Origin: Octopus vulgaris
Lineage: Eukaryota
Assembly (NCBI GenBank): GCA_951406725.2
Contig: OX597824.1
Coordinates: 72,850,001 to 72,914,000, forward strand
Length of the DNA: 64,000 nt
Reading direction: 5' to 3'
A model generated the notes under the pieces. That model saw only the letters and a list, made by a program, of their open reading frames with translations. It searched no databases and was not told the origin of the DNA. Positions 21,236 to 51,475 of this stretch are shown here, piece by piece. Within the stretch, counting starts at the first letter, position 1; every line of letters starts with the position of its first letter. The translations under genes were made by a program, and so were the position numbers.

Positions 21236-22613
21236 CATATTATATGAATAATGGGTGGATAAAAGATGGTTGGATGGATAAAAGAGAAGCCAAATGGTGG
21301 CAATAAGTGGAGAGACATGTTAAAATGTGTTGATCAGAGTCCCAATACTTGTGTCTATACCTATTGCAAAATAAAACTATCACATTAGCAAATATTTCTC
21401 ATTGTACTGCCATAATGATGCACAAGAATGCAGCTTTTAAAAACAAATAGATATCAGAGATAGATCATTAGAAAACAATAAAAACAATCAATTTTTCCAG
21501 AAGATAGATCCCTGCTATTTAACATAACAAAACAGAAACCATCTTGGAAAAAAAAATTAATATGTTCTTTGAACAACAGACACCCTATGTGCAAAAACTG
21601 CAACAGCTGCAGTATTGCGCATCATGTGTTATATCAAATGGCAACATGTAACACGTCATAAACTAATGTTCAAAAATTTAAAAGACTACAGTGTCCTATA
21701 GTTATATATGAAGGAATTATAATGTCTTGTTTCCACAAGTTTTGAATTAAAATCTTCCACCAGGCTTTAATCACAATTTATGTTCTTAACACTGGCTTAA
21801 TGATAACTAAGTTATTTTACTAAATTCTTCGTTATATTTAAAGTAATTGAAAGAAACACTGAGCATCTCAAAATGAATACAGTAATGAAAGGGTTAGACC
21901 ATTCTAGCCATAACCATCCTGCTTTTTTCCTATGTGCAGGGAGTCCAGGATCACATTATCCAATGCATCCATTTCTTAGATGATAGGTTATGATTTGGAG
22001 GTGATTTAGATGCTATTTCTAGTAGGTTGAACAATAATGCAACAGCTTACTTGTAGGCTTGAGTGCATTGCATATGGTGTGTCCGTTGCATATTTTTCAA
22101 TGAGAAATTCCAGAAACTCTGTTTCCTTGCATCAACAAACCAGATGTCAGAAATAGATTATTTCACTTCCATTTCCACTCTCAGACCAAGATTGTAGTTT
22201 TGGTGACACAATAATTGTAGTTTGGTTAAAAAAAAAAATGAACAAAGTAAAATAAAAACAAAAAAAAACCCAGAAAAATATACACACAAATGAAGAAAAA
22301 GAACAAGTGAAAGGTTTAAATATATATATATTTGCAATTTACCTCTTTGTATTTGGTTTGAACAGAGTTAATCCCCAAGAAGTAAGTGAGCACTGTTTCA
22401 ATTCCTAAACACAAGAGTCATGTTATATACCCGTCAAGAAATCTACAAAAACTAATTTCTTGCTCTAAATTGGCAAGCAACAAAGAACTGGTGAAAAGGA
22501 AAGAAAAAAAAATTTTTTGAAGAAAAATAAATAGATTGGAAAATTTTTTTTGTTTCATAAAATTTTTTAAATTCCTGCCATATATGGTATGGTGTAGCAA
22601 AATTAAGTGTTTA

Positions 22614-25600
22614 TCATGTTAATATGATTTCAGCTTTGTGAGTGTTTTTATGTCGGGTTAAGTCTCCCTTTAATGCAAAAGCTTTCTCGCACAGATTGCA
22701 TTTGTATGGTTTCTCGCCAGTGTGTGTACGAATGTGCCGATTCAAGTCGCCACGTAGCGAGAAGGCTTTATGGCAATATGAACAGGCAAATGGTTTTTCT
22801 CCTGTGTGTGTGCGTATGTGCTGTGTTAAGTGACATGATTGGGCAAAAGATTTATCACAGTACTGACAAGCAAATGCTTTCTCAATGTTGTGAGTTAGAA
22901 CGTGTGATTTGAGAAGGCTCGAATGTAAAAACGTCTTTCGACAGACAGGACATTGCAAAGGTCCTGTGTGAATTTTCAGATGGTTGATGAAGTCTTTGTA
23001 GAGAGTTATTTCCTTTTGGCAAAAGCGACAGACAAAAGACTTGGTTTTTCTGTGCACAGCCATATGTTTCAGTAGTTGGTGCATATGAGTAAACACTTTG
23101 TTGCAGTGTTTACAACTATACAATTTGTCGTTCTGTACCTGAGTTACATTTTCAATAGACGCTGGTGAACTGTCTAGGTTTCTTAAACTGCTGTTCAGTA
23201 CCTGTTTATTTCCAATGTGTGTGATTAAATGCTTAACAAGATGCAGACGCTCAACAAATGACTGATTACAAACATTGCACAAATAAGGGCTGTTTGTAGC
23301 AGAAACGCTGTTAGCTAAAGTAGATGTGGTACTCAAAGAACTCTCTTGACTTGTTGTAGGTTTGAGCTCTTTACCATTTAAAGGATCTGTTTGAGTAGGT
23401 TCTGTGTATTCTTCTTTACATTTCTCAATGAAATACAAAGTGTCCACATTTTGAAAACTGTTTGCCTCCTCAGTTTGGTTATATGCTAACTCCAAATTCT
23501 CAATGTGGGTTTTCAAATGAGAAATAAAATCATTTTTATGCTGAAACGTAGACAAGCACTGATCACATTGAAACTGGGCCTTTTCTGAGGAGGCTTCTGA
23601 TCTTTGGATATCTGGGCTCAAATCTTTACTACTTCTCAAACTAGAAGTTGTCATCAAATCAGAACTTGGAAGGGATCTTTGTTCTGTATGGTTCTTCAGA
23701 TGGGACTCCAAACTGCTGTGATTATCAAATTGCTTACTACAGATTTTGCACTGAAATAAGCCATCTCTACTGAACTGTTTGGAGGTTTTGTTCTGGGAAT
23801 TTTGTTGGCCTGCAGTCTCCAAGTTTGTTTCTGATTGCTTCTGGAAACTTTTCTCCAAATTATCAATTTTAACAGAAGAGTTTGATTTCAAATTTGGTCT
23901 GGGTGTGTGTCTTCTGAAGTGAGTTGTGAATGAATCAACAGTGGAGAAGTAGATATGGCATATCATACACTTAAACAATCTTTTATCTTCATGCACTGAC
24001 ATATGGTTAACGAAATTGTCAACAGTTAAATAATTAACCTTACAAAACTCACAGGTGTACAGAGAATGTCCAGAGCTGGCTGAGTCTTCTGCATTAGGAA
24101 GGTTTCCTGAAGATACAGATGTTATGACAAGAGGTGAATCTTGGTCACTTTCAGATTGGTCAATACAAAAGAAGTTTTGCTGCAGGTCAGTACTAGACTC
24201 ACTTGTCACTGGAAATTTATTCAGATCTACAGTAATGTCATTAATGATTTCATTTTGTGCTGCTGCTGCTAATGATGTTGATGACGTTGTGGTTCGTTGG
24301 TTCACTGGCTGATTGCTTGTGTAAGCATTCTCTTCTAAATAAGTTGCTCCTGCTTGGCCATCAAAATTTACATTGTGTGTCATGAAATTGATGTCTTTAT
24401 CACACTGGTCTTTTCTTGATGCCAGGATATCATTTCGAGAAAGATCTTGAGATTTGTCTACAGTTAGGAAAGTGCCACTGTCATTTTTGAAGTTACCCTG
24501 AGAAAGTTCTGAACAGTCATTTACTAGGGACAATTTTACATCAAAGTTACTGATGGTGTTTGAGGTTTTGTTGCTAGAATTTACTCCAAGCCTGTCTTGA
24601 CTACCAACATCTGTGATTGAGTTCATTTCAATACTGTTGTTATTGTTGTTGCTGTTGTTGTTGTTGTTGGTGGTGGTGTTGGTGTTAGTTGTGGAAATCT
24701 CTTCAAGAAGTACCATGTCTTCGTTATTGCCACAATAGCTATCAAGATTAACAAACTGGTCACTATGGGAAAGGTTTTCTGGAAAGCTGGAACTGAACTG
24801 AGAATCATTTAGTTCAGATGAAAACTTCTGATAGTTTGTAAGGTCAAAGGTCAAACTTCTGTTAATGAATTGGTCATCAAATTCTGACTGATCGCAATAA
24901 CCATTGAGAATCTGGATTAGTTCTCTGTTTTTCTTAATCGCTTCAGTCAAATTGCTGCTTGAATAAATATCTGGCTTGTTCTGGCTTGTGTGAGTTTTCA
25001 AGTGGTTGACCAGTTCAGCAGATCCAACGAACTGCAGTGGACATTGGTCACAAGAGAATGTCTTTGATGGCATGTTGTTCTTTCTTCGGTTGCTCAAAAC
25101 ATTTGGCTTGTTATTGATTCGAGTTTGTTCCTTTTCTAATGATAATTTCCTGCTATTACTTTTCCCACTGTTCAGATCTAAAGTATCATAGTTCGAGACA
25201 TCAGACCTCTCTCTCCCCAATTCATTTGTTTTGGGAGCAGTAGAAACGGGGTTACGAGAATGATCTAAGTTACCTAATGGATCTGGTGGGTGAGCTAAGT
25301 TCAGTAATGAAAATGTGTTGAAGTCAATATTCATGGATAGCTCGTTACACTTCTCACAGTAAAATAGCCACTGACCAGTCTTTGTGCGGCAATGCACGGC
25401 AACATGTTTCAGATCAGCACTTTCAATATTGTTCCGGATAAATTCCATTTTTTTCTCATCTATATCTCTTTCAGTTTGTATTGCAATGCTTTTTGATGTG
25501 ACTCGGCCTTCACTGGATGTCCGTACATCCTTATCAAGAACACCTAGCCGACTTCTTCCAACAATGGAATTCCTGCTATTATTTACAAAGAACTGGAACT

Positions 25601-27296
25601 GTTTTCGGACGTGGTCTTTTTTGGGAGCTGAGGAATAGTTTGACTTCAAGAAGTTTCGACTGTGAATCAGTAATCTCTTGGAATCTCTCTTTATTCCATG
25701 TTCCTGACTGCGATTTGTTTTAATTGGCAAATGCACCTTACTGTTTCCACCTGATACCTTTGATCTGTCTTTACCCCCATCTTTGGATTGATTGACTGAT
25801 AAGCCATCTTCTATTGGATCATCATCAAGAATGACCACTTCTTCAACTTCGGACCGCTTGAGCATTTTAGCTGCAGCACCTTGTTGTTCTACAAATGAGC
25901 GTTTGCTACTTTTATTGCTTAAGTGCTGGTTTTTTGAAATGCTTTTAAGTTCTTTATCTAAGACGTTTCGACATTGAGGTGTTGAAAAATAAGTGGTGGG
26001 CACAAGAGACTTGTCCAAGTTATACTTGCTTCCCTGCCTATTGGTTAAATCTCTTGACTGGTTGTTAAACCACGCTGAAGAGTTTTGCAGAACTTTCTTG
26101 TTCTGTTCCTGAGATAAAGCTTGGTTGTTCACCAAGTTGCGAACTACATTGCTTCTTCTAATCTTCAGTGGCTTGTTCAAGCCTACCTCACCTGTGGAAT
26201 ACACCTTGTTTGCAGAAACATCTCCGTGACTCAGCGAGTGGAGTCTCATGTGTTTTATTAAATGACTCAGAGCAGGAAACGAATCAGAACAGTATTTGCA
26301 TCGATAGCGCTTCTCTTCGAAATGAACATTCCGGCAATGCATCGAGAGAGTGCGAAGACTGGTAAAGCGCTTCTCACATTTGTTACACTTGAACAGCTTA
26401 TCTGTGCCTAAGTGTATCTTGACATGCCTAGTCAGGTCACCACGGAGCGTGAATGCTTTCGGACACTGTGGACAATGAAATGGTCTCTCTCCTGTGTGAA
26501 TGCGAATATGCCGGTTGAGGTCACCACGCAAAGTGAAAGCCTTCTGGCAGTAGTCACATTTAAAAGGCCTCTCTCCTGTGTGGGTTCGAATGTGTTGAGT
26601 AAGGTGACAGGCCTGAGAAAACATCTTCTTACAGTACTCACATTTGAATGGCTTATCTATCTTTGACAGAGAAACTCCACCAGGAGATGGTTCGGAGTTT
26701 TTCTCTGATTTTTCTGGTTGACTGCTCCCTCCATTTACAGCTGAGGGTAAAGGTGCTACATCGGCAATAACATTCGTTGCCTCGGTGGAATGGTAAACCT
26801 GTTGTTGATCCGGAAGACTGGAAACATTGGTTAGGTTTTGCTGAGACGCAGAAGGATTTTCATTGCTTTGAACTGGCTTTGAAAACGTAACACTAGTGGC
26901 ATTAGTGTTCTTAGAAGGTGTCCCCGAGGTAATTTGTAGAGTATCAAGAGGCTCTTCATCAACAATCGTAATAGAAGGTGAAGCTTGGGACTGAGGTTGT
27001 TGGTTGGAAGATGACAATGACAGTGAAGGTGTTGCTGTTGTTAATGACGAGGAAGATGAAGATGATGATGATGATGACGATGATGATGACAATATGGATG
27101 ATGGTAGTTCAGTTGCAGCTGATGCTGGCGTTTCCTGAAAGAAGTTTGTTAATGATACATCGGAGGATACTGACTGAACTGCCAGGTCTGTGTCAGAGGT
27201 GACCAACTGCGGAGCATCATCATAAATAGAAACGGACTCGAATGAGGATTCTTCCATTTCAGAGAACAACCTTGTATCAATTTGGTTCATATCCAT
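22614..27296 (-). CDS. Large multi-cluster C2H2 zinc-finger protein (1560 aa, 17 fingers, uninterrupted CDS)
   Basis: Open ORF; ACCATGG start with an in-frame stop upstream; TGERPF/TGEKPF linkers; 5 N-terminal fingers, 6 scattered middle fingers, 6 C-terminal fingers; poly-Ser and poly-Asn/Thr tracts. Confidence 0.95.
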   Translation of the reverse strand: MDMNQIDTRLFSEMEESSFESVSIYDDAPQLVTSDTDLAVQSVSSDVSLTNFFQETPASAATELPSSILSSSSSSSSSSSSSSSLTTATPSLSLSSSNQQPQSQASPSITIVDEEPLDTLQITSGTPSKNTNATSVTFSKPVQSNENPSASQQNLTNVSSLPDQQQVYHSTEATNVIADVAPLPSAVNGGSSQPEKSEKNSEPSPGGVSLSKIDKPFKCEYCKKMFSQACHLTQHIRTHTGERPFKCDYCQKAFTLRGDLNRHIRIHTGERPFHCPQCPKAFTLRGDLTRHVKIHLGTDKLFKCNKCEKRFTSLRTLSMHCRNVHFEEKRYRCKYCSDSFPALSHLIKHMRLHSLSHGDVSANKVYSTGEVGLNKPLKIRRSNVVRNLVNNQALSQEQNKKVLQNSSAWFNNQSRDLTNRQGSKYNLDKSLVPTTYFSTPQCRNVLDKELKSISKNQHLSNKSSKRSFVEQQGAAAKMLKRSEVEEVVILDDDPIEDGLSVNQSKDGGKDRSKVSGGNSKVHLPIKTNRSQEHGIKRDSKRLLIHSRNFLKSNYSSAPKKDHVRKQFQFFVNNSRNSIVGRSRLGVLDKDVRTSSEGRVTSKSIAIQTERDIDEKKMEFIRNNIESADLKHVAVHCRTKTGQWLFYCEKCNELSMNIDFNTFSLLNLAHPPDPLGNLDHSRNPVSTAPKTNELGRERSDVSNYDTLDLNSGKSNSRKLSLEKEQTRINNKPNVLSNRRKNNMPSKTFSCDQCPLQFVGSAELVNHLKTHTSQNKPDIYSSSNLTEAIKKNRELIQILNGYCDQSEFDDQFINRSLTFDLTNYQKFSSELNDSQFSSSFPENLSHSDQFVNLDSYCGNNEDMVLLEEISTTNTNTTTNNNNNSNNNNNSIEMNSITDVGSQDRLGVNSSNKTSNTISNFDVKLSLVNDCSELSQGNFKNDSGTFLTVDKSQDLSRNDILASRKDQCDKDINFMTHNVNFDGQAGATYLEENAYTSNQPVNQRTTTSSTSLAAAAQNEIINDITVDLNKFPVTSESSTDLQQNFFCIDQSESDQDSPLVITSVSSGNLPNAEDSASSGHSLYTCEFCKVNYLTVDNFVNHMSVHEDKRLFKCMICHIYFSTVDSFTTHFRRHTPRPNLKSNSSVKIDNLEKSFQKQSETNLETAGQQNSQNKTSKQFSRDGLFQCKICSKQFDNHSSLESHLKNHTEQRSLPSSDLMTTSSLRSSKDLSPDIQRSEASSEKAQFQCDQCLSTFQHKNDFISHLKTHIENLELAYNQTEEANSFQNVDTLYFIEKCKEEYTEPTQTDPLNGKELKPTTSQESSLSTTSTLANSVSATNSPYLCNVCNQSFVERLHLVKHLITHIGNKQVLNSSLRNLDSSPASIENVTQVQNDKLYSCKHCNKVFTHMHQLLKHMAVHRKTKSFVCRFCQKEITLYKDFINHLKIHTGPLQCPVCRKTFLHSSLLKSHVLTHNIEKAFACQYCDKSFAQSCHLTQHIRTHTGEKPFACSYCHKAFSLRGDLNRHIRTHTGEKPYKCNLCEKAFALKGDLTRHKNTHKAEIILT

Positions 27297-27720
27297 GGTA
27301 ACAAGATCAAAGTGATTTCTTCAATTTTATTATTTTTGTTGATGTTGGAGTATATGGGAGCTATCGATCTTACATCAAGACCGGAAAAATCAGAGTATGA
27401 ACCAAACATTTTGGCCGGACCTGCATGAACCCAAAGGGATAATCTGAAAGTGGAATGGACAATGAATTCTCATCTTGGTTAAGTTATGTCTTAAGATCAT
27501 AAGTTTCCTTTCTCTGTTTTCTTTATTAAATAAAATCTTTTAACTTTTGAAATTATTTGTTTTCAATATATGATTTTGTTTAAAAATAGTTCCATTTTAC
27601 CCTGCAAATTTCTTTAATAATCATATTGATGATGGATCAGGTCGGAAAATTTATTATATTGATAGCTTGTTTAAAAATCTCTAATACCTCCATGCAGCCA
27701 ATGAGGCTTGGTTATTGCTA

Positions 27721-27753
<33 letters not shown>

Positions 27754-28060
27754 TACTTCTTTTGTACTTTGAAGTTGGCATATAATAAAAGAATATTCAA
27801 ACTGTGTGTATGTTGACGGTGACGATGGTTAACGGTAACTTGCATCATTTAAATTATCACATTAGTAACAGACATCTTGCAATCAGAATTCCAGGATCCA
27901 ATGTCTCCAGAATATAAGAAGGAATCTGACTGAAAAAAAGAAAAAGGAAAGATATCAGAGAATAAATAAATAAATAAATCTATATATATGGCGGTGCCCC
28001 AGCATGGCCACAGCTCATAAGCTGAAACTAGAATCAATCAATCAATCATATATGTATATA

Positions 28061-28094
<34 letters not shown>

Positions 28095-28616
28095 ATATCA
28101 ATAAAATATATATATATGCATATATACATACATACACATATGTACTTACCTACATATATATGTATATATACATGCATATAAGGGTACAGGGCATTCAAAA
28201 AAACGTTGAACACAATGAGAAATGAAAACATAAAAACAAAAAGATAGAAACAAACATTTTTTTCGAACAACGAAACAAACAACATAAAGAATATTCCCCT
28301 TCTTCAGTTGTCCCTGTTTCATCTTCTCACCTTCGAAACATGGAGTAGATGAGAAACAGGGATAACTGTTTAAGATTTAATTTAATATATATATTTGTGT
28401 TTGTGTGTGTGAAACTGATAAACTAAATTCAATTTACGATAAAAATTTGCAGTTTCATTTTGATGAAAATACCAGCATCTTCAGAGTAAATCATTTGAAT
28501 GCAGTTGGCCTGCGTTTAGTGTCTCTGACTGTCATCCACATCCACTCCATTGGTTGTACTATTTTTCTTTCACCAGCGTGGCCAATGAGACACATTGCAT
28601 TTTATTATATGCAAGA

Positions 28617-29490
28617 TGGTGGAAGGCACCGAGCTGGCAGAAACATTAGCATGCCGGACGAAATGCTTAGCGGTATTTCGTCTGGTGTTACATTCTGAGG
28701 CGAGCTGGCAGAAACATTAGTATGCCGGGCGAAATGATTAGCTGTATTTCATCTGCCGTTACGTTCTGAGTTCAAATTCCACCGAGGTCGACTTTGCCTT
28801 TCATCCTGTCGGGGTTGATTAAATAAGTACCGGTTATGCACTGGGGTCGATGTAATCGACTTAATCCGTTTGTCTGTCCTTGTTTGTACCCTCTGTGTTT
28901 AGCCCCTTGTGGGTAGTAAAGAAATAGGTATTTTGTCTGGTGTTACGTTCTGAGTTCAAACTCCGCAGAGGTCAACTTTGCCTTTCATCCTTTCGGGGTC
29001 GATAAATTAAGTACCAGTTACGCACTGGGGTTGATGTAATCGACTTAATCCCTTTGTCTGTCCCCTCTGTGTTTAGCCCCTTGTGGGCAATAAAGAAATA
29101 AGAAACATTAGCATGCTGGGTGAAATGCTTAGCGGTATTTCATCTGTCTTTATGTTCTGAGTTCAAATCCAACTGAGGTTGACTTTGCCTTTCATCCTAT
29201 TGGGGAAGATAAATTAAGTACCAGTCATGTACTGAGGTCGATCTAATCGACTGGCCCCCTCCCCCAAAATTTCAGGCCTTGTGCCTAGAGTAGAAATGAA
29301 TTGTTAGCACACCGGGCGAAATGCTTAGCAGTATTTTGTCTGTCTATACGTTCTGAGTTCAAATTCTGTCGAGGTTGACTTTACCTTTCATCCTTTTGGG
29401 GTTAATAAATTACGTATCAGTTGAGTACTGGGGTCGATGTAATCGACTATCCCCTTTCCCCAAATTTCAGGCTTTGTGCCTATAATAGAA
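28617..29490 (+). mobile_element. Tandem cluster of SINE family B (Deu/Nin-like domain). Other copies: 18710-18940(-), 34208-34427, 34810-35040, 40765-40996(-), 42262-42450(-), 45006-45236(-)
   Basis: GAGTTCAAATTCC B box; GCCTTTCATCCTTTCGGGGTCGATAAATTAAGTACC resembles the Deu/Nin domain; AAAGAAATA tail. Confidence 0.88.
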
Positions 29491-30781
29491 AGGATCATAT
29501 GTAAGATGGTGTAGAGGTGATGAAAAATATAACACAAAGGAGAGATGAAGAAATTTAAAGACAAAACAGAGGAAATGGGACAAAAAAAAAATTGAAAAAA
29601 AGGAAATGTCTTTAACATTTTGAGCATTCAATCTTTTTCAGAAAGATAGATTAGACATAAACAGGAAAGAGGAGTGGAAGAAAACTGGAGAAATTGTAAC
29701 TTACATGTGTACATAAACACACATACACATACATACATGTAAATATTTTTTATTGTTGTTTTTGTATAGCCCCAGGCCAGCTCTAATCAAGCAGATCTAT
29801 GAACAAACGTATTTCAGCTATGACCATCCCTTTCTTTTTGGCTCATTTGTTATTTTAAACAGGAATATTGCACTACATTATCCAACGTTTCCTGTCCCAT
29901 TTTGTGAAGTGAGTAAGTGTGGTTCTGAAGAGACTAGGCTTCTATTTATAGCACATCAAGCGGCTGTATGTAGGTTCTACTGGTGTCTAGTATTGATGCT
30001 GTTGTTGGCAGCGAAGGAGGAGAAGGAGAAAGGAAGAACAAGGAGATAGGGAAAAGGAGAAGGCAGAGCAGGAAGAAGGAGAAGGATGCTAAATTCTGTA
30101 ACTGAAATCATTGATAACTCTCACTTTACTCACTGCATCAGTGTATATAGCTTGTACAACTCTCACAAGTCATTCATCTACATCTAGTTTCCTTAATGGC
30201 CATCAGATCACTAAGTACTCTTTCAAAGGCCCTCTCCAAATCAACAAAAACCAAGAATAGTGGTTTATTTTTAACCAAGTATTTCCCCTGCAGTTGCCTC
30301 ACTAAGAAGATAGCATCTGTGGTACCCCCTTTGAGCATGAAGCCAAACTGCATCTCATCTAGCTCTACTCTGTCACAGATTAATTGTACTACAACTTTCT
30401 CTGGGAACGTCATAACCTGATCACGAAGTTTGATTCATCCTCTCACAGAAGCAACGTCATTGTCCTTGTGGCTTTTATGAAGACACATCTAGGCTAGTTA
30501 CTGAGTATGACAGCTTCCTGTATAACCTGGATTTGTCTATGCATCCTACATCATCAGATATCTTGAGTATCTCTGCAACAATCCCTAACGAATACACAAC
30601 TTTCTTAATCACTTTATCTACCAAGCTACTGTAAACTTAAATTGGGCCAGCATCAGTATGAGGCAGCACTTCTATATTCCATGCATTCTCCACATTCAGA
30701 AGCCTCTCGTAATAACAATTCCATGCCACTTTCTTGTCTTCCATGTGTATGATGAGTATGCCTTCATCATTCTGAATATAC

Positions 30782-31121
30782 AATTGCAGCGTGGAAGGTG
30801 TTTGTAAGCCATTTAAGAAACACACAAAAGCCGTTTGATTCACTTCAACATTTAAGTTTAATTTGTCAAAATATTTTCGTCGCTATAAGACCGCAACCTG
30901 TTCACTGACAAAAATCTATGCTGCATCACCGATTTTTGTCAGTGAACAGGTTGTGGTCTTATAGCGACGAAAAAAAAAAAAAAAATATTAAATGTTGAAG
31001 TGAATTGAACGGCTTTTGTGTGTTTCTTAAATGGCTTACAAACACCTTCTATGCTGCAATTGTTTTCGTTCCAGCACACGATCTCAGATCAAATCACTTG
31101 CTATGCAAGTACATCTCCGTA
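30782..31121. mobile_element. Palindromic hammerhead-bearing insertion with 13-bp TSD inside an RTE remnant
   Basis: Inverted repeat about 30780-31063 plus tail; ATTCTGAATATAC at 30769-30781 and 31122-31134. Confidence 0.82.
30862..30912 (-). ncRNA. Minimal hammerhead motif with G3:C8 swapped core
   Basis: tttgtca GTGAACA g gttgc-ggtcttata-gcgac GAAA atat TT tgacaaa. Confidence 0.7.
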
Positions 31122-31802
31122 ATTCTGAATATACTTCTTGCCAAACTCAGAACCTGAAGATGGACCAAAATACTGCTAAGCACTTTGTACAGAATGCTAA
31201 GAATTCTGTCTCAGTTCTTTCTCACACACTGCCTTGCAATCCTGAACACATCATGCTTCTGCGCCTCATGTAGGACATGTGCAAATCTCTTCCTTTCTGC
31301 CTCACCCTTAGCCAAGTATACCTGCCACTTATCTGCTCTTCTAACCATTTGATACTGCTCCCTAATACCAATATCCTTCCAGATTTCCCAAGCCTGTCCC
31401 TGTCTCTTAGCCTTAACTATCCTATCAACCATTATGTTACCTTCAATTTGGTTATGGCTTTGTCCCAGCTATATGTTTGATCTGTAGCACAAGGCAGATT
31501 ATTTCTTAGAAATTCCCAACAGTCATATATGTCAGTTAAAATTCCTCTAAACCTATTTGCAACTATGGGATTTCTTACATATGAATGTGTGTGTATATAT
31601 ACATACACACATTCGTATGAATGCATATATGTATGTAAGGTGGTAAGCAGATGGAATTGTTAGCATGCTGGACAAAGGGCTAAGCAGTATTTTGGCCATC
31701 TTCACATTCTGAGATCAAATGCCATGAAGGTTGACTCTGCCATTCATCCTTTCAGTGTCAATAAATTAAGCACTAGTCAAGTACTGAAAAAAAAAAAAAA
31801 AG

Positions 31803-32134
31803 TGAGACCCCCTCCAGTCATGAATGACCATGGGATTGCATCTAGAAAGTTACCCTCTGAGGCACAAGTCCGAGCAAGGTTATTTATGGAAGACCAACAG
31901 TCACCCATGCATACCGGCCTCCCCTCTCCACGCCACTGATGTTTTCCAAGGGAAAGGCAAAGGCTGATGCAGCTTGGCACCAGTGACATTGCAACTCATT
32001 TCTACAGCTGAGTTAACTGGAGCAACGTGAAATAAAGTGTCTTGCTCAAGAACACAACATGCAGCCCAGTCCGGGATCCGAACTCACAACCTCATGACCG
32101 TAAGCTTGATGCTCCAACCACTGAGCCATGTGCC
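31803..32134 (-). mobile_element. tRNA-derived SINE family E (V-domain-like). Other copy: 47255-47590(+)
   Basis: TGGCTCAGTGG...GAGTTCGGATCCC head, then GTGTTCTTGAGCAAGACACTTTATTTCAC. Confidence 0.8.
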
Positions 32135-32136
32135 AA

Positions 32137-32453
32137 TCTCCTGACATGAACCCAACTGAAAATCTTTGGAATATACTAGATAGAACTATATGAAAAACTC
32201 GAAAGAAACCTAAATCTAAAAATGAATTGTTTCGATTGTTGCATGAAAAGTGGGCAGAAATTCCACAAGAGACAATCACAAAGCTCATCAGTTCAATACC
32301 AAAAAGAGTTTCTGAATTAAAACTGCAAAGGGAATGTCAACTATATACTAAAGTATGTAGTCCTACCTATCGATTACATTTCAATTGTTCACTTAGTGTA
32401 TTAAATAAAAGATTTTGAAAATTAAAGGTGTCTATTTACTTCCTGCATGTCTG
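32137..32453 (+). mobile_element. Tc1 transposase 3' remnant
   Basis: SPDMNPTENLWNILDR...WAEIPQETITKLISSIPKRV with a stop and a frameshift; ends CTG-TA. Confidence 0.8.
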
Positions 32454-32920
32454 TATACACACATATATATATATACATATATATATATATCATCATCATC
32501 ATCATCGTTTAACGTCCGTTCTCCATGCTAGCATGGGTTGGACGGTTCGACCGGGGATCTGGGAAGCCAGAAGGCTGCACCAGGCTCCAGTCTTATCTGG
32601 CAATGTTTCTACAGCTGGATGCCCTTCCTAACGCCAACCACTCCGTGAGTGTAATGGGTGCTTTTTACGTGCCACCTGCACAGGTGCCAGGCAAGGCTGG
32701 CAACGACCACGGTTGGATTGGTGTATTTTACGTGCCACCGGCACGGAAGCCAGTCGAGGCAGCGCTGGCATCGGCCACGAGTCGGATAGTGCTTTTTATG
32801 TACCACCAGACCAGGGATCCTGGCTGGTTCAATTCGATTTCGATTTTGATTTTTATATATATATATTTGTATGTATATATATATATACTTTATTTAAAGC
32901 AGCAGAAAATTCAACAAAAC

Positions 32921-32958
32921 CTGTTACTCTAAGTTTCACGTTGCCGTTCGTCGGACAG
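32921..32958 (-). ncRNA. Minimal hammerhead motif, U4C core variant
   Basis: ctgt CCGACGA acg-gcaa-cgt GAAA ct-tag-ag TA acag. Confidence 0.72.
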
Positions 32959-32981
32959 TTTTTGCTAGAATCTAGCAAAAA

Positions 32982-33019
32982 CTGTCCGATGAATGGGAAC
33001 GTGAAACTCAGAGTAACAG
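32982..33019 (+). ncRNA. Minimal hammerhead motif, U4C core variant
   Basis: ctgt CCGATGA atg-ggaa-cgt GAAA ct-cag-ag TA acag. Confidence 0.72.
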
Positions 33020-35059
33020 GTTTTGTTGAATTTTCTGCTGCTTTAAATAAAGCATATTACTCTACCACTGGTATTTGAGTACTCTTTTTTCCACCTTGTT
33101 TCACATTTATGTGTTTACTCCGATATATATATATATAAATTCATTTATATAATATATTACTCATTTGTGTGTGTGTGTGCATGTGTTGTAATATCTAATT
33201 TCATGGGAAAGGTTACATGTTTAGTATGGCTTTATTTTTTGCTTTATTTATATTATATACTGACTTGAATGCAAGATGAAGTATCTCAATTCTTATGATT
33301 GTTAGTCATGTGATCTAGCAGGCAGTCAGCTATTACCTCAGTATTTCATATGTTTGAAGTTGTGACAGGAGGAACAGTATGACATTTCATCCTTGCACAC
33401 AGGTCACCACTTAAAAAAAAAAATAATAAAATAAAATAAAAGGGAGAAAAAAAACAGTAGAAGGGGAAAATAAATAAATAACTAGACATCTCCCCCACCT
33501 GCCCTTATTCCCCATGAAACATTCTTTCACCAGTTCACTGTATCAAATTTCATTAGCCATCACATTGTATTCACCTGAATGTGTATAACAAAACTTCATT
33601 TTTCTTACATATATTTGAGCTAATAATCTCAGGTGAGCAGGCATTTTTGTCGCTGGTTCTCCTAGTAGCAGCAGCTGCTGCTGCTACTACTAATGGTGAT
33701 GGCAGGAATTACTGGCAGGTCATCAGCCTGACAGATGCAACAGGCTTTCTCATATGTAATATAGTCAATTGAGAAACTTTGATCGGCTGAGATTATCCAA
33801 AGAAATTAATAGACAAAAAAAAAAGGGAGGAAAAATAGCAAAACAAAGAAAAAAACTGCAAAAACCTCCCTCTAGAAATTTTGAAAAGTTTAAAAACAAA
33901 GAACAAGTGAAGGGAAGTAACTTCGATAAGATCAGTTGATTGAAATTTTTGGACATTATAGACAATGCAGATTGGAATGGATCTGGTATTTAAAAGCATT
34001 ACGTTCAAGGGTTATAACTGATCGAATTGGTTTAGTGCATTACTGATAATGTACATTTTATTGATATTGGAGAGATAAAGGTCACAGCTGAAATCTGGCA
34101 TGATTTGAACTTAAAAGTAAAAGGACATAACTAAATACCATAAAGTATTTTGTATGGGTCTCAACTATTTCCACCATTAAAACTGTAAGCAGGTTGAGCA
34201 ACTAAAAAGGCGGCGAGCTGGCAGAAACGTTAGTGTGCTGGGCGAAATGCTTAATGGTATTTTGTCTGCCGCTACGTTCTGAGTTCAAATTCCGCCGAGG
34301 TCGACTTTGCCTTTCATCCTTTCGGGGTCGATAAATTAAGTACCAGTTATGCACTGGGGTCGATATAACTGACTTAATCTGTTTGTCCTCCCTATGTTTA
34401 GCCCCTTGTGGGTAGTAAAGAAATAGGTCGAGCAACCATGTTGAAGTTCTCTCTTTGGTTTGTGTAAGGACTGGGGTCAATTTAATTGAATGTTCTGTGT
34501 CCACAAGTGTGTGACCATATGTCAATGATAGACATTATTATTATGAGCAGGGAGAAGAGTCCGAGTCTGTGCGATATTTTTCTCTGGCTCTTTATGTTCT
34601 GAATTCAAATACCACAAAGGGTGACTTTACCTTTCATCCTTTTAGAGTTGATGAAATAAAGTACCAAGCACAGGTGTAGCTGTGTGGTAAACAGCTTGCT
34701 CCCCAACTACATGGTAGTGGATTCAGTCTCACTGTGGCAAGTGTCTTCAGCTATAGCCTTGGGTAAACCAAAGCCTGGTGAGTGGATTTGCTAGACAGAA
34801 ACTGAAAGCAGTGAGCTGGCAGAAACATTAGCATGCTGGGCAAAATGCTTAGCAGTATTTCGTCTGCTGCTATGTTCTGAGTTCAAATTCCGCCGAGGTC
34901 AACTTTGCCTTTCATCCTTTTGGGGTTGATTAAATAAGTACCAGTTACGCACTGGGGTTGATATAATCGACTTAATCTGTTTGTCTGTCCTTGTTTGTCC
35001 CCTCTGTGTTTAGCCCCTTGTGGGCAGTAAAGAAATAAGAAACTGAAAGAAACCGGTCG

Positions 35060-35124
<65 letters not shown>

Positions 35125-35780
35125 CTTTGTGTCTGTGTTTGTCCTCCACTGCCATTTGACAATCAATGTTGGTGTGTTTATGTCCCTATAACTCAGCGGT
35201 CAGGCAACAGAGACAAATAGAATAAGTACTGGAGTCAATTTATTTTTGTTATATTTTACTCATTTCAGTAATTTGACTGTAGTCATGCTGGGGCATGGCT
35301 GCAGACAAATGTGATACCAGCACCAGCAGGGTCACAAAGTAACTTGCAAGTCAAGAAACTTGAGAGGGAAGGGGGCATTTTTATTCATTTTTTAATATTT
35401 TCTAAACCCCAACCAGGCCACTCCTAACCTCACTTTTATATTGTGAGTAGTCATATAGGTTCTGTTCCAGCTCCATTCACACTTTAACCCCTCACCTCTT
35501 AACATAAAACTGCTATCCTCTCTACTGTAGCCCCACTCAGTCAGAGGGATCTAAGTCTTGCAGGCTGCATGGTGGCCTTGCTAGTGTTGGTGTCTCAAAC
35601 AAAGCGTCCTGTGCACTTAGTTAAGCTGTTGGCATTAGGAAGGGCATCCAGCCATAGAAACCTTACCAAATCAAACAATGGAGCCCGACTCAGGCCACTG
35701 GCTTGCTGGATCCTGCCAAACCATCCAAACTATGCCAGCATGGAATTTTAACATTACATGATGATGATGATAATGATATA

Positions 35781-35921
35781 CAGTTGTAGCAAAAAGTTTG
35801 GAACATAGGTCTGAAAATTAGAATTTTTATATTAAGTGCCCAAAGTTATATTTGGTTGGAGCATATATTGGGCATATCAATTTTAATTTTTTTTAAATGT
35901 TGCAAATTTTGGCCATGACTG
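35781..35921. mobile_element. Tc1-type MITE, degenerate
   Basis: TA-CAGTTGTAGCAAAAAGTTTGGAACAT ... ATGTTGCAAATTTTGGCCATGACTG-TA. Confidence 0.6.
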
Positions 35922-35928
35922 TACACCA

Positions 35929-35980
<52 letters not shown>

Positions 35981-36159
35981 CATCCAGATCATACTCACAT
36001 GGAAAAGTGGGTATAGAATGATGATGAACAGAAAGGGATGTAACTAAATACCACAATGCATTTTTCATCCCTCCCAACTTAGTCCACTTCATGCATCAGT
36101 CTTATCTTTAGTAACTTAAATGTTGGAATGGGAAAAGATAAAATAATTAATATCAATCA

Positions 36160-36855
36160 CCAAACCAAAATCATAGCTGTGGCCAGTACCCCCTGAATCC
36201 CGTTGTGGTGGAATGTAATAAGCACCATCTGAATGGGGCCGATGCCAGGCCCACCTGACTGGCTCCCGTGCCAGTAGCACATTAAATGCATCATCCAAAC
36301 GTGGTCGATGCCAGTACCCCCTGACTGGCTCCTGTGCCGATAGCACATAAAAAGCACCATCCAAATGTGGTCAATGCCAGGTCCGCGTGACTGGCTCCCG
36401 TTCTGGGGTCACGTAACAAGCGCCATCTGAATGTCACCGATGCCAGTGCCCCCTGACTGGCTCGCGTACTGGTTGCACATAAAAAGCACTATCTGAATGT
36501 GATCGATGCCAAGGCTGCCTGATTGGCTCCCATGCTGGTAGCATATAAAAAGCACCATCCAAATGTCGCTGATGCCAGCGCCCCCTGACTGGTTCCCATG
36601 CCAGTGGTATATAAAAAGCACTTTCCGAACACGATCGATGCTAGGCTCACCTGACTGGCTCCTGTGCTGGTGGCAATTAAAAAGCACCCACTACACTCTT
36701 GGAGTGGTTGGTGTTAGGAAGGGCATCCAGCTGTAGAAACATTGTCAGATCAGATTGGAATCTGGTGCAGCTGCTGGCTTTCCAGACCTCAATCAAACCA
36801 TCCAACCCATGCCAGCATGGAAAACAAACGTTAAATGATGATGATGATGATGATG
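36160..36855 (+). mobile_element. Retroposon family C with internal 66-bp tandem array and (GAT)n tail. Other copies: 1-130(-), 6960-7345(-), 10664-11065, 15195-15510(-), 32490-32850(-), 49490-50110
   Basis: Shared GGTTGGYGTTAGGAAGGGCATCCAGCTGTAGAAA...CAACCCATGC 3' block; unit number differs between copies. Confidence 0.85.
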
Positions 36856-37202
36856 AGGCCATTGAGATGATGTGTTACAGGTGAGATCAGCTGAGCAAGC
36901 TGTAAAACAAATGATTCAGTCTCGGAGGACAAGGGAGCAAAAAATAATGACAATAGTCTGATGGTGAAATCTGATGGTGTTATCAGGGCTCAGACTTTCT
37001 GTGCCTGAATGAAAAAAGATTAAGATGGGAGTGACAACATCAAGGGCTGTGTATAGCTGCAGCACAAGACCACACTATGTGACAAGGAGTGGTTGTGTCT
37101 GAGGCTGTTGACCAGCAGCCATGAGAAAGGAAATATTCATTTCATTCATTCTATTGATTATTTTACTGAACATTCTAGAATCAACAACAAAGTGTTCCAA
37201 AA

Positions 37203-37223
37203 ATAATAGTAATAATAATAATA

Positions 37224-37259
<36 letters not shown>

Positions 37260-37341
37260 GTAATAATAATAATAATAGTAATAATAATAATAATAATAAT
37301 AATGATAATAATAATAATAATGATAATGATAATAATAATAA
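37203..37341. repeat. (AAT)n microsatellite
   Basis: Read directly. Confidence 0.97.
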
Positions 37342-37342
37342 T

Positions 37343-37801
37343 GTGCTACAGCAAATATTCTGCTCAATACCACAGATTTGCTTGTCAGTTGTTTGACCAT
37401 AACCAGTTGAGCATGTCCCTTAGTGGCTGACGATATGTGCATTTCTGATCACGAGCAGAAGTAGTGGGGTAGCATCATAGCCATGTGTTGAGAGGGATTC
37501 TTTGGGGTTTGAATAGTTCACCTCTGGAAACATGGGTGGTTCTTTCAACATCCTTAAACAACCCTTATTCAGGGACCGTTTGAGCGGGATGGGCTACTCA
37601 ACCTGAAGAAAATTCTAACTGGGCCCCACCTGCAAGGTCATGTGCTGTTTATCTTGATATGAGATCACCATGTCGCGCACATATGGTTGTGATGCATGTG
37701 CCTGGTGTACCTTTATCAGACGGGTAGTCATGATGGGTATATTGGGCTTCGTATATTTTACCCCAGTGTCACTTTGATGGCATGAACTGCTCTCTCACTC
37801 A
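37343..37801. mobile_element. Interspersed repeat inside (TAA)n, shorter copy
   Basis: Highly similar to 38558-39115; (AAT)n on both sides. Confidence 0.8.
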
Positions 37802-38520
37802 ATTATAATAATAATAATAATAATAATAATGGTTTCAAATTTTGGCACAAGACCAGTAAGGTTGGGAGGAGTAAGTCAATTATATCGACCCCCAGTCCTC
37901 AACTGGTTTCTTATTTTATTGACCCTGAAAGAATGAAAGGAAAAGTTGACCTAGGTGGAATTTGAACTCAGAACATTCAGAGACAGACAAAATGCCATTA
38001 AGCATTTTGCCTAGTGCAGTAACGATATAAGAATGATGATGATAATGCTTTAAGAATGATGATAATGATGATGATGGTCACACCCATTGATTTCAACATA
38101 CAAGTGTTTGAAGGAAAGGAGTAAAAATGAAAGAAGCTGCATTTGTGATGGATACATGAATGAAATTTCAGTCCAGGTATGGATTTTGCTATGAAGTCTA
38201 CAATAGGGACAATGATGATTTTGATTTTGCCTGGGAAATGACAAATGTGTCTGTTAATCGCAAGATATAATTCTACCTACGACTATAGACAAAAGGCCTG
38301 AAATTTTGGCAGAGGGATAAGTCGATTACATTGCCCCCCCTCCCCCACCTACTGAACTGGTATCTATTTTATTGAAAGGATAAGAGGCAAAGTTGACCTC
38401 AGTGGAATATGAATTCAGAACATAAAGATGAATGAAATGCCTCCTAAGCATCTTGTCTGATGTGCTAATGGTTCTGCTAGCTCACCGCTGCTGCAGCTAC
38501 TGATAATAATAATAATAATG

Positions 38521-38557
<37 letters not shown>

Positions 38558-38559
<2 letters not shown>

Positions 38560-39115
38560 GCCCTGATGCAGTACCAGACAGTGGCTCTCATGGCTTCTGA
38601 TCTTAACTGATTGGAAGTGTTATCATGTACATTGTTTTGTCTTGGTATAAAAGATGGGCTACAGCAAATATTCTGCTCAATACCACAGATTTGCTTGTCA
38701 GTTGTTTGACTATAACCAGTTGAGCATGTCCCTTAGTGGCTGACGATATGTGCATCTCTGATCACGAGCAGAAGTAGTGGGGGAGCATCATAGCCATGTG
38801 TTGAGAGGGATTCTTTGGGGTTTGAATAATTCACCTCTGGAAACATGGGTGTTTCGTTCAACATCCTTAAACAATCCTTATTCGGGGACCTTTTGAGCAG
38901 GATGGGCTGCTCGACCAGAAGAAAATTCTAACTGGGCCCCACTTGCAAGGTCATGCGCTGTTTATCTTGATATGAGATCATCATGTCACGTACATATGGT
39001 TGTAATGCATATGCCTGGTGTACCCTTATCAGACGGGTAGTCATGATGGGTATACTGGGCTTCATATATTTTACTCCAGTGTCACTTTGATGGCATGCTC
39101 TGCTCTCTCACTCAC
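38558..39115. mobile_element. Interspersed repeat inside (TAA)n, longer copy
   Basis: Second copy; (AAT)n on both sides. Confidence 0.8.
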
Positions 39116-39285
39116 TAATAATAATGATGATGATGATGATAATAATAATAATATCAATAATAATAATGGTTTCAAATTTTGCCACAAGGACAAAGTCATG
39201 AAGCTGTAAGATGGTATATGATTAATTGAAAGCAATGTGAATAAGTTATATTTGATAAAGTAATCCGCAAGCTAATCGGTTAAAA

Positions 39286-39597
39286 CAGGGGTTCTCAATC
39301 ATTTTTTTATCTATGGACCCCTTTGATTCCTATTTTACTTGGGTGGACGCCAATAGCCATTTGATATTTAGAAAATCCTATTACATTTTCATAATTAAAT
39401 ATTATTATGACTTGTATAAAAATTGTTAAAATATTTTGTGTAAAGTGGATGTATAACCAGTTTATTACATGTGAACTTTACTGGTCTAAAGCACAATTTT
39501 TTTCATGGCCCCTGAAAAATTACCACGGACCCCAATTTACTATATTGCATCTGTGGACCCTAATAATTTTTATATGGACCCCAGTCGAGAAACCCTG
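39286..39597. mobile_element. hAT-type MITE
   Basis: TIRs CAGGGGTTCTCAA / TCGAGAAACCCTG; perfect 8-bp TSD GGTTAAAA. Confidence 0.88.
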
Positions 39598-39966
39598 GGT
39601 TAAAACTTATCAAAATTCTTTGTTACTTTTTATTCCAAACATCAGTTTGACATTACTGTCAAAAAAGTTATTTTGACAGTAATAATTCCTTCTATAGGCA
39701 CAAAGACGAAATTTCGAAGCAGACATCAACCCTAGAAATCAACAAGAACTTATTGTATTGATCTTGAAAGGGTGAAAGGCAAAGTTGACCTTAAGAGTAG
39801 GATGAAATGTCACTAGGCATTTTGTACACTATACTAAAAACTCTGCAGCTTGCCACCTTAACAATACATATGAGCTTATCTTATTTAGTGCCCAGGTGCA
39901 CTTCAACTCACCAGAAAAGGTTAATAGAGGGAAAAGAAAGCAGGCATATAAGTAATGAGAGACATC

Positions 39967-40378
39967 GGATCTTTTCGGTTTGAACGGCAGTTTTTTTAGC
40001 GGTGTCATGTGAAATTGTCACCCATAATTATGACCCTAGTATCGATCTATTGCATTTCAATCTATTTTAGGGTTAGGGGTGAGGGAAAGGATATCTTTTT
40101 TTTCTTCACAAATGTAAATAAACCCAATCTGTTTCTTAAACGAGGGACATATTCATACGGCACAGAATGTTTTTTATCTCAATGGACGTCAGTGATTGGT
40201 TGAAATTTCAGAAATTGAAGAAAAAAAAACAACAAATATCTTACAAACTATAGAATTTTTTCAATAAAGCCAAGAGAAAAAGATGTTTTATAAACACATT
40301 CTACCAGTATACGAAGTTTAAAATTTTTTAGTTACCTAGAAATTATGTTAAAAACTGCCGTTCAAACCGAAAAGATCC
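39967..40378. mobile_element. Non-autonomous DNA transposon with 29-bp TIRs (GG termini, Merlin- or MULE-like)
   Basis: GGATCTTTTCGGTTTGAACGGCAGTTTTT ... AAAAACTGCCGTTCAAACCGAAAAGATCC; 8-bp TSD gagacatc/aagacatc. Confidence 0.85.
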
Positions 40379-41365
40379 AAGACATCGATAAAAGTTACAC
40401 AGAATAAAACACAAAATGACAGAAAAATGAGCATTAAAAAAGTCAGGAAAGGGTGCATAGGCTTGTCAGGAGTAGTGTCAGTAAATTTTGGGAAGTATTT
40501 AGTATTTGAAAGAAGCAGTGTCCTGACAAACTACAAAGGCATTGTACCACCGAATCAGTATTCAACAGGTACAGATTTGATCGATTCCAGAAAGATGAAA
40601 AAGCAGAGCTGACCAATGAAACGTAACTTAAATATTGCCCTGATCATTGTTCGCTGCGCTTCGGGTTCTTTAAAAACTTAGGACATAAATCTGCAGGGTG
40701 AGGGGGAAATGGATTAAAATGACCCCAGTACTGTTACTTTATGTTATCGACCACATAAGAATATATTTCTTTATTGCCCACAAGGGGCTAAACATAGAGG
40801 GGACAAACAAAGACAGACAAAGGGATTAAGTTGGTTACATCGACCCCAGTGCATAACTGGTACTTTATTTATCAACCCCGAAAGGATGAAAGGCAAAGTC
40901 GACCTCGGTGGAATTTGAACTCAGAACGTAACGGTAGACGAAATACCACTCAGCATTTTGCCCGGCGTGCTAACAGTTCTGCCAGCTCACCGCCTTTGAA
41001 GAATAAAAGGCAAAGCTAGCTTCTGTGGGACTTGAAACCAGAATGCGAAGGGACATAACTAAGGACTTCGAGACACTTTGTCCGACGCTCTTTTTTCGTG
41101 AATGACACATTACACATTAATACAATATTTTCAATTGACCGAATTTAGATGAGAGGGTGTGTGTATTATTAATTCACCAAACTGTAGTACATAAATGCTC
41201 TCGGTTATTAATTCTATTTCGGAGGAAATAGTTGCAAAATAACGCCCCGCCCTTGGGTGGGATGCAGTTTGAACTCTGAACAAATGCAGATGGATAAAAC
41301 TTGAAATACTAGACAGCACATTACTTGATCCAGCATTGGAGCCATTCCTGCAAATCAATGAGTGA

Positions 41366-41393
41366 ATGTGTGTGTGTGTGTGTGTGTGTGTGT

Positions 41394-41463
<70 letters not shown>
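41366..41463. repeat. (TG)n(AG)n microsatellite
   Basis: Read directly. Confidence 0.97.
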
Positions 41464-41465
<2 letters not shown>

Positions 41466-50534: not shown

Positions 50535-51475
50535 CCCCTACCTGACACATCCACACTCGTTCGTCTGGCCGAACTTATCCTCTCACTCAACTGCTTCTTC
50601 TTCGCTGGTGATTTTTAACAGCAGATCTCAGTAATGGCCATGGGAATGAGAATGAGCCCCAACTATGCGAACCTGCTTGTTGGGTACGTTGAGGCCTAAA
50701 TATTCTCAAGTTTCATTGGTCCCACTCCCGAACTATACGGCAGTTATAATGAAGACGGTATCGGTGCAACCTCACTCTCCTGCAAACATCTAGACTTTTT
50801 CCTCTCTTTTGTCAAATCTTTCCATTCTGCCCTCCACTTCTCCTGCACTATTTCTAACACTTCTGTCTCTTTTTTCGACATTTCGGTCAGCATTCATCAC
50901 TCCACTCTCACACTCATACCTCAACTTCTCCTCCTCCCACCCTAAGTACACCAAGCTCTCCATCATCTACGCAGGCTCTACAGTGATGACCATAACTTTG
51001 AGACTCAGTCTCAACTCTTGGCTCGCCACTTCATCCTATGTGGATATCCCCTCGACACTATCCACACCGCCCTTGCCAGAGCATGTTCCGTGAACCGTAC
51101 ATCTGCTCTCTCCAACACCACCCTCTTCACTGTCACCTGTCATCAACCCTATCATATCAGTGACTCTTCACCTGCACTTCTACCAATGTCATCTACTGCA
51201 TCTCCTGCTCTCTCTGCCCTTCTCTATACATCGGGCAAATGGGACATTGCTTGGCTGACTGGTTTGCAGAACACCTCCAAGACATCCAAGTCAGCAATGA
51301 CACCTCGGTGCTGCACCATATCCGCTCTACCAGTCACTCTTTGCAACACCTGGCTGTGTTCGGATTGTCCCTGCACAGGGGCCATCCAGACTCCTGTCTT
51401 CGCCGTGAACAGGGATTAATTCTCTCTCTTCTCTCTTTTGTGCCACATGGGCTCAACTCTCCTCAGAGGAGTTAA
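50535..51475 (+). mobile_element. Decayed Penelope-like RT/GIY-YIG fragment
   Basis: MAMGMRMSPNYANLLVGYVE and LYIGQMGHCLADWFAEH-like remnants with stops and frameshifts; starts after (TA)n. Confidence 0.75.

What the first reader, a model, noticed from the sequence alone, without database searches (positions are those of the whole stretch)
22638..26648. ZNF with duplicated DNA-recognition triplets at opposite ends: candidate bivalent or looping factor
Seen: fingers 1-3 (26412-26648) have the helices QACHLTQ, LRGDLNR and LRGDLTR. Fingers 15-17 (22638-22874) have QSCHLTQ, LRGDLNR and LKGDLTR. Positions -1, 2, 3 and 6 are identical while the beta-hairpins have diverged, and the modules are about 1250 aa apart. 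Established: ZEB/Zfh1 and Schnurri/HIVEP use two distant clusters of like specificity. This protein shows no homeodomain, and its helices do not resemble theirs. Inference: selection keeps both ends binding one motif (roughly GCN-GCN-NGA by the simple recognition code), allowing bipartite sites or DNA bridging. This differs from ordinary tandem-array ZNFs.
Basis: partly seen in the sequence, partly recalled or inferred. Interest (0 to 1): 0.72.

Follow-up and report, generated by a model that had tools for sequence, protein, structure and literature searches.

The report
Two-handed octopus zinc-finger protein
An octopus gene encodes one long zinc-finger protein with the same three-finger unit at both ends, kept unchanged at its predicted DNA-contact residues in every relative found, so it likely grips two copies of one short DNA motif; this layout is already known from other animal proteins and recurs in other octopus genes.

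Summary
A spliced octopus gene with one coding exon encodes 1,560 aa and 17 C2H2 fingers. Fingers 1-3 and 15-17 share 12 of 12 contact residues; the best of 667 background triplets shares 7. Synonymous sites are saturated, and the N and C copies form separate clades across four orthologues, so this is an old internal duplication kept by purifying selection, not gene conversion. Only these six fingers have invariant helices and canonical linkers. Orthologues were found in Argonauta and two unnamed, more distant clusters; no named non-cephalopod one appeared. It is not ZEB, SALL or ZNF236. The layout is not special: ZNF236 has it, as do all 4 octopus zinc-finger frames over 1,500 aa examined, and this scan noted a nine-headed case on other DNA of this genome. 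Most likely (0.5) it works like ZEB, binding two nearby copies of a roughly GCN-GCN-NGA motif with loose spacing. Long-range looping has no specific support (0.12). No binding was tested, and SALL4 shows that conserved extra clusters can be dispensable. Verdict: new member of a known kind.

The parts
42748..42876 (-). 5' non-coding exon (upstream end approximate)
   Evidence: Contigs of 3 likely-RNA runs continue past 27931 with 118-127 letters whose first 30 match 42750-42779 exactly; GT donor follows
27930..42747 (-). 14,818-base GT-AG intron
   Evidence: Ends GTAAGA and TTTCAG; skipped in the contigs
22314..27929 (-). Large exon holding the rest of the 5' UTR, the whole coding sequence and 3' UTR (3' end approximate)
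   Evidence: Contigs of 4 runs from 4 studies tile 22314-27931, broken at simple repeats; no single contig spans both triplets
22614..27296 (-). Coding sequence, 1,560 aa, 17 C2H2 fingers
   Evidence: start Met aligns with P0003 and P0005; 15 synonymous and 4 non-synonymous differences in run X13
26412..26648 (-). N-terminal triplet, fingers 1-3, two canonical TGERP linkers; predicted DNA-binding head
   Evidence: Helices identical in 4 of 4 aligned orthologues; linkers
26238..26387 (-). Fingers 4-5, moderately conserved, non-canonical linkers; could extend the N head's site
   Evidence: 3 and 2 of 4 contact residues kept in P0003/P0005
25257..25505 (-). Conserved small non-finger domain of unknown function, single copy in the genome
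   Evidence: 70-82% identical in orthologues; one match in G000; AlphaFold2 alpha/beta model, mean pLDDT 64; no Pfam family
23217..25052 (-). Fingers 6-11, dispersed and poorly conserved, in Ser/Asn-rich linker; includes a short conserved motif at about 24894-24950
   Evidence: 0-2 of 4 contact residues kept in P0003/P0005; finger 6 absent there
22890..23114 (-). Fingers 12-14, moderately conserved, non-canonical linkers; could extend the C head's site on the other side
   Evidence: 2-3 of 4 contact residues kept in P0003/P0005
22638..22874 (-). C-terminal triplet, fingers 15-17, two canonical TGEKP linkers; predicted DNA-binding head
   Evidence: Helices identical in 4 of 4 aligned orthologues; linkers

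Best explanation
It is a conserved single-copy octopus zinc-finger gene whose three-finger unit was duplicated long ago and kept at both ends, and the protein likely works as a two-handed transcription factor, each end predicted to read the same roughly 9-base motif so that one molecule would hold two nearby copies with loose spacing. Shown: gene structure, old duplication, no conversion, purifying selection focused on both triplets. Inferred: DNA binding by both triplets, a core near GCN-GCN-NGA (recalled recognition code), avidity for paired sites within tens to a few hundred bases as in ZEB, and co-factor docking on the conserved middle domain.
For: All six triplet helices are identical at 7 of 7 positions in 4 of 4 aligned orthologues that are only 38-66% identical overall, while none of the other 11 fingers keeps all four contact residues in P0003/P0005. 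Five further full-length members of the P0003 cluster keep both triplets. The protein's only four TGE[KR]P linkers lie inside the triplets; such linkers are typical of DNA-binding arrays (own knowledge). The two helix differences between copies fall at +1, a position reported as less important for specificity (PMC4330361 passages). Synonymous sites are saturated and N and C copies are separate clades, 99/96 and 100/96. ZEB2 needs both clusters and tolerates variable half-site spacing and orientation (PMC8304685 passage). A recalled polymer scaling rule gives about 35 nm reach for 1,181 aa, about 100 bp.
Against: No binding data. Conservation of both heads does not show that they bind at the same time. 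SALL4 clusters ZFC1 and ZFC2 are conserved from flies to humans yet showed no specificity in SELEX and were dispensable for genome occupancy in stem cells (PMC7895904 passages). Leu at -1 and Gly at 2 in four of six fingers make the motif uncertain; the core sequences were not found in the supplement text searched, and that paper says context changes base preference. Flanking fingers differ between the ends, so full sites may differ. Linker disorder was not formally shown. No single RNA contig spans both triplets.
Confidence: 0.5

Rival explanations
1. Both triplets read the same core but act one at a time: flanking fingers 4-5 and 12-14 tune each end to a different extended site, or two heads speed target search by hopping between DNA segments.
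For: Flanking fingers lie on opposite sides of the two triplets and are moderately conserved, 2-3 of 4 contact residues. Copy-specific residues have been fixed since before the orthologues split. Scanning by separated finger clusters is proposed in a review (PMC12539977 passage).
Against: The flanking fingers are joined by non-canonical linkers, and one linker has an insertion in P0003/P0005. Pure redundancy would be expected to let one copy decay, as finger 6 did.
Confidence: 0.23
2. One or both triplets are kept for something other than sequence-specific DNA binding, such as RNA or protein binding, as suggested for the extra SALL4 clusters.
For: SALL4 precedent (PMC7895904, PMC9838217 passages). 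Whole fingers, not only helices, are highly conserved between orthologues, 17-21 of 21 residues.
Against: Between the two copies, identity is concentrated at the contact positions (12 of 12) and not the hairpins (12 of 30); canonical linkers; Arg6, Asp3, His3 and Gln-1 are usual base-reading residues (own knowledge).
Confidence: 0.13
3. The protein is an architectural factor that bridges distant sites (enhancer-promoter loops or repeat clustering) by holding one site in each hand.
For: Two like heads on a linker with a contour length of up to about 425 nm. The layout recurs in four long octopus frames. Zinc-finger motifs are enriched at coleoid loop anchors (PMC13652810 passage) and human C2H2 proteins gather at loop anchors (PMC13678222 passages).
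Against: None of this is specific to the gene. The best-known two-handed factor, ZEB, is described as binding paired half-sites in its targets. The loop-anchor paper attributes bridging to protein-protein networks. A monomer with two 9-base heads would be a weak tether (inference).
Confidence: 0.12
4. The identity reflects recent duplication, gene conversion or an assembly error.
For: Recent internal repeats are common in octopus finger arrays, e.g. L021, L023.
Against: 5 of 17 four-fold sites identical; N copies are 73-82 of 82 alike across orthologues but 55-59 of 82 alike to C copies; independent contigs carry each end.
Confidence: 0.02

Closest known systems
ZEB1/ZEB2 (deltaEF1/SIP1, Zfh1) two-handed zinc-finger factors (PMC8304685, passages)
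   Same: Two finger clusters near the ends of a long protein; in ZEB both are needed and bind two like half-sites with variable spacing and orientation. Best model for how this protein works.
   Different: No homeodomain, no PxDLS CtBP motif, single coding exon, no ZEB among the best 120 hits. Binding here is untested.
ZNF236 (vertebrates, hemichordates; e.g. P0048)
   Same: Commonest named hit. Distant clusters share 11-12 of 12 contact residues over about 280-700 aa, conserved across deuterostomes.
   Different: Different helices, about 30 fingers, two kinds of repeated head; the octopus has its own ZNF236-like exon at G000:C4, 78% identical to the P0048 cluster.
SALL/spalt proteins (PMC7895904, PMC9838217, passages)
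   Same: Several separated finger clusters in one long protein.
   Different: No N-terminal NuRD-type motif or Q-rich segment seen here; heads are triplets. In SALL4 one cluster dominates DNA binding, the main caution for this finding.
Schnurri/HIVEP (ZAS)
   Same: Large protein with separated finger groups (PMC1361774, one figure legend); like specificity of the two groups is recalled, not checked.
   Different: Finger pairs rather than triplets; none among the best 120 hits; helices not compared on fetched sequences.
Other long octopus multi-head zinc-finger genes: G000:C15 (L012), C5 (L013, like Argonauta P0015), C30 (L099)
   Same: Long frames with dispersed repeated heads, best cross-gap matches 11, 10 and 9 of 12. 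The C15 heads are the nearest relatives of this triplet, 97/87.
   Different: Different helices, two to five like heads; heads mostly group by gene, so each gene multiplied its own head. No description found in the paper searches run.

Membership tests
C2H2 zinc-finger proteins | C-x2-C-x12-H-x3-5-H fingers | tested here: met
   17 fingers; PF00096 E 1.4e-51
ZEB/Zfh1 | Two separated finger clusters | tested here: met
   Clusters at residues 219-353 and 1395-1553
ZEB/Zfh1 | Central homeodomain-like domain | tested here: not met
   No homeodomain family at E 0.1
ZEB/Zfh1 | CtBP-interacting PxDLS motifs | tested here: not met
   0 matches to P.DL[ST] (pattern recalled)
ZEB/Zfh1 | Both clusters bind like half-sites together | not testable with these tools
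   Needs binding assays
ZNF236 | ZNF236 helix signatures and orthology | tested here: not met
   Helices differ; separate 78% match at G000:C4; triplets do not group with ZNF236 rows
ZNF236 | Distant duplicated clusters with kept contact residues | tested here: met
   12 of 12 here; 11-12 of 12 in ZNF236
SALL/spalt | N-terminal NuRD-binding motif (aa 1-12) and Q-rich segment | tested here: not met
   Only RRK is at residue 737 (pattern recalled); no Q-rich run in the sequence; features from PMC9838217
Schnurri/HIVEP | Separated finger pairs with the family's helices and acidic region | tested here: inconclusive
   Heads are triplets and no HIVEP was among the best 120 of 1,830 hits; no family sequence was fetched for direct comparison
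Young octopus tandem-array expansion | Continuous array and membership of the array clade | tested here: not met
   Dispersed fingers; outside the 36-row array group, 96/91; middle domain single copy

The most novel reading that the evidence does not exclude
Coleoid cephalopods repeatedly and independently built long multi-headed zinc-finger proteins, each repeating its own DNA-reading head two to nine times, and these act as a lineage-specific class of sequence-specific chromatin bridges in the expanded, rearranged coleoid genome; this gene is the simplest, two-headed member.
Probability: 0.12. Interest if true: 0.72.

Novelty: new member of a known kind. Interest (0 to 1): 0.33.

Why it matters
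The targets and mechanisms of the large cephalopod C2H2 repertoire are open questions (PMC12513265, parts read). This gene is an old, single-copy, strongly constrained member with two matched heads, so it is a clean test of why repeated heads are kept: avidity, search or bridging. The wider point is that all four long octopus frames examined use this layout. If such proteins bridge DNA they would add a CTCF-independent route to loops; if not, this is an ordinary uncharacterised two-handed factor.

Tried and rejected
Gene conversion, recent duplication and assembly error: rejected. Identity as ZEB, SALL or ZNF236: rejected (membership table). Search for non-cephalopod orthologues: whole-protein search, best 120 of 1,830 hits listed; middle-domain search, 3 hits among 7 candidates; middle domain against 1.84 billion representatives, 2 strong hits and 16 weak ones that lack the triplet helices; C triplet among 47-151 aa proteins, best identity 64%, no matching helices; metagenome contigs, 38 loci at 52% or less, judged from the listing only; ESM Atlas, generic finger clusters only. 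These cannot exclude a mollusc orthologue that lacks the middle domain, because long arrays crowd the hit lists. Middle-domain fold search: no Foldseek match at E 0.001, best VIA Z 6.2, in the common range. Middle-domain homodimer prediction: no answer, not evidence either way. Predicted motif in the window: 10 GCNGCNNGA matches in 64 kb, none near the first exon, no control run; uninformative. No run is on record as RNA; the spliced junction is what shows transcription. DNA-sized run X15 laid nothing. Papers: helix strings gave only integrin-peptide papers among 25 listed of 83; searches listed no description of this gene or of repeated heads in cephalopod finger proteins; subscription papers are not searched. 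The original ZEB two-hands paper was not held. Full selection tables of PMC4330361 were not in the supplement text searched (one file not searched) and could bear on the motif.

Full report
Observation. The window holds one long frame, 22614-27320 on the minus strand, with the first Met at 27296 and 1,560 aa. It has 17 canonical C2H2 fingers. Against 667 triplets from 44 other finger frames of this genome the N triplet matched at most 7 of 12; 0 of 836 background fingers had either helix type (two truncated duplicate frames were dropped before the count). These frames came from 40 regions chosen by frame length from the 149 matches, so they are not a random sample.

Gene. The genome is 2.8 Gb and the best protein hit is from Argonauta hians at 66%, so the organism is an octopus (inference). 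Contigs from four runs of four studies tile 22314-27931, broken at simple repeats. Three runs continue past an AG acceptor into sequence at 42750, which defines a 14,818-base GT-AG intron. The runs are only guessed to be RNA, but the splice shows transcription. The whole coding sequence lies in one exon. A related organism's run differs at 15 synonymous and 4 non-synonymous sites of those listed; one further row of that table was not shown.

Age and selection. Between the two triplets 5 of 17 four-fold sites are identical and pS is about 0.9, which is saturation. Three orthologue clusters were found: P0001 (Argonauta), and unnamed P0003 and P0005 at 38-39% identity. I infer from distance that the latter are squid or cuttlefish; this is not shown. 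If so, the layout is at least as old as the coleoid split, about 270 Ma (PMC13652810 passage). All six helices are identical in 4 of 4 sequences, including the copy-specific Ala/Ser and Arg/Lys at +1. N and C copies differ at 21 of 82 sites in every orthologue; N copies are 73-82 of 82 alike to each other and 55-59 alike to C copies. In a 78-row tree of 80 columns, N copies (99/96) and C copies (100/96) are separate groups and sisters (98/78); support values are rough. Five of seven further members of the P0003 cluster are full length and keep both triplets; two are fragments with the N end only. None of the other 11 fingers keeps all four contact residues in P0003 and P0005, and finger 6 is absent there. 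The only four canonical linkers are inside the triplets. So both ends are under strong purifying selection, separately, with no conversion.

Other parts. A roughly 80-residue middle domain is 70-82% identical among orthologues, single copy in the genome, without Pfam match, and models as a small alpha/beta unit at pLDDT 64 with no clear structural match. Its weak hits are finger arrays aligned over a His...Cys-x2-Cys stretch, so it may be a degenerate finger junction. Its role is unknown; co-factor binding is a guess.

How special is the layout? Not very. ZNF236 from vertebrates and hemichordates has distant clusters with 11-12 of 12 shared contact residues, yet it is a different gene: the octopus has a separate 78% match. 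In this genome, 4 of the 4 finger frames over 1,500 aa seen have distant repeated heads: this one (12 of 12), C15 (11, five heads), C5 (10) and C30 (9, counted by eye). Heads of C15 and C5 are also old (four-fold identity 4 of 11 to 11 of 21). Heads mostly group by gene, and the C15 heads are nearest to this triplet (97/87), so the layout arose several times.

Mechanism. Positions -1, 2, 3 and 6 are the main specificity positions, +1 and +5 less so, and context alters preference (PMC4330361 passages). Identical contact residues on canonical linkers therefore predict one shared core. ZEB2 needs both clusters and accepts variable spacing and orientation (PMC8304685 passage). A recalled scaling rule puts the linker's typical reach near 35 nm, about 100 bp, which suits local paired sites. 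I give this two-handed reading 0.5. Independent use of the heads gets 0.23, a non-DNA role for a head 0.13 (SALL4 ZFC1-2 are conserved yet showed no specificity and were dispensable in stem cells; PMC7895904 and PMC9838217 passages), looping 0.12, artefact 0.02. No call bears directly on binding or looping.

Papers seen. PMC12513265: parts 1-2 of 7 and passages. PMC8304685, PMC12539977, PMC13678222, PMC7895904, PMC9838217, PMC13652810: passages. PMC4330361: passages, supplement list and one supplement search. PMC1361774: one figure legend. The 1999 ZEB two-hands paper: nothing seen, recalled only. Others: search listings only.

Verdict. A real, old and strongly constrained feature in an uncharacterised gene found only in cephalopod or unnamed records. 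It works most likely like ZEB but is not a member of that family. New member of a known kind; interest 0.33. The recurrence of multi-headed finger proteins in octopus is the part most worth a systematic look.

Noticed in passing
L012 (G000:C15, 2,121-aa frame): Five dispersed heads ending in DRxNLxx/FHIQLxR helices; nearest relative of this gene's triplet in the tree.
   Followed up: partly
L013 (G000:C5, 2,426-aa frame; like Argonauta P0015): About five dispersed heads with xSxDLKV/ISRNLTA/QKSALTV helices, kept in Argonauta.
   Followed up: partly
L099 (G000:C30, 1,794-aa frame): Duplicated four-finger heads at both ends, about 1,670 aa apart, with dispersed fingers between: the same bookend plan as this gene.
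   Followed up: partly
P0028 (unnamed, 2,650 aa): Seven clusters, six built around NPSNLTR/xSSNxxx helices; another multi-headed protein of unknown taxon.
   Followed up: no
window 27297-27929 (-): The 633 bases between the acceptor and the start codon hold 13 ATGs; a second acceptor-like TTTCAG lies near 27445, so alternative splicing or translational control is possible.
   Followed up: no
window about 25824-25838 and 24894-24950 (-): A VVILD motif resembling a SUMO-interacting motif, only loosely kept in P0003/P0005, and a short helix-like motif kept in all four orthologues.
   Followed up: no
window 22688: One run of the same species carries a Glu-to-Lys difference in the knuckle of finger 17, outside the helix.
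   Followed up: no
window 54214-54774 (+) and 50946-51419 (+): Short frames that look by eye like decayed retrotransposon C-terminal pieces; no Pfam match at E 0.01.
   Followed up: partly
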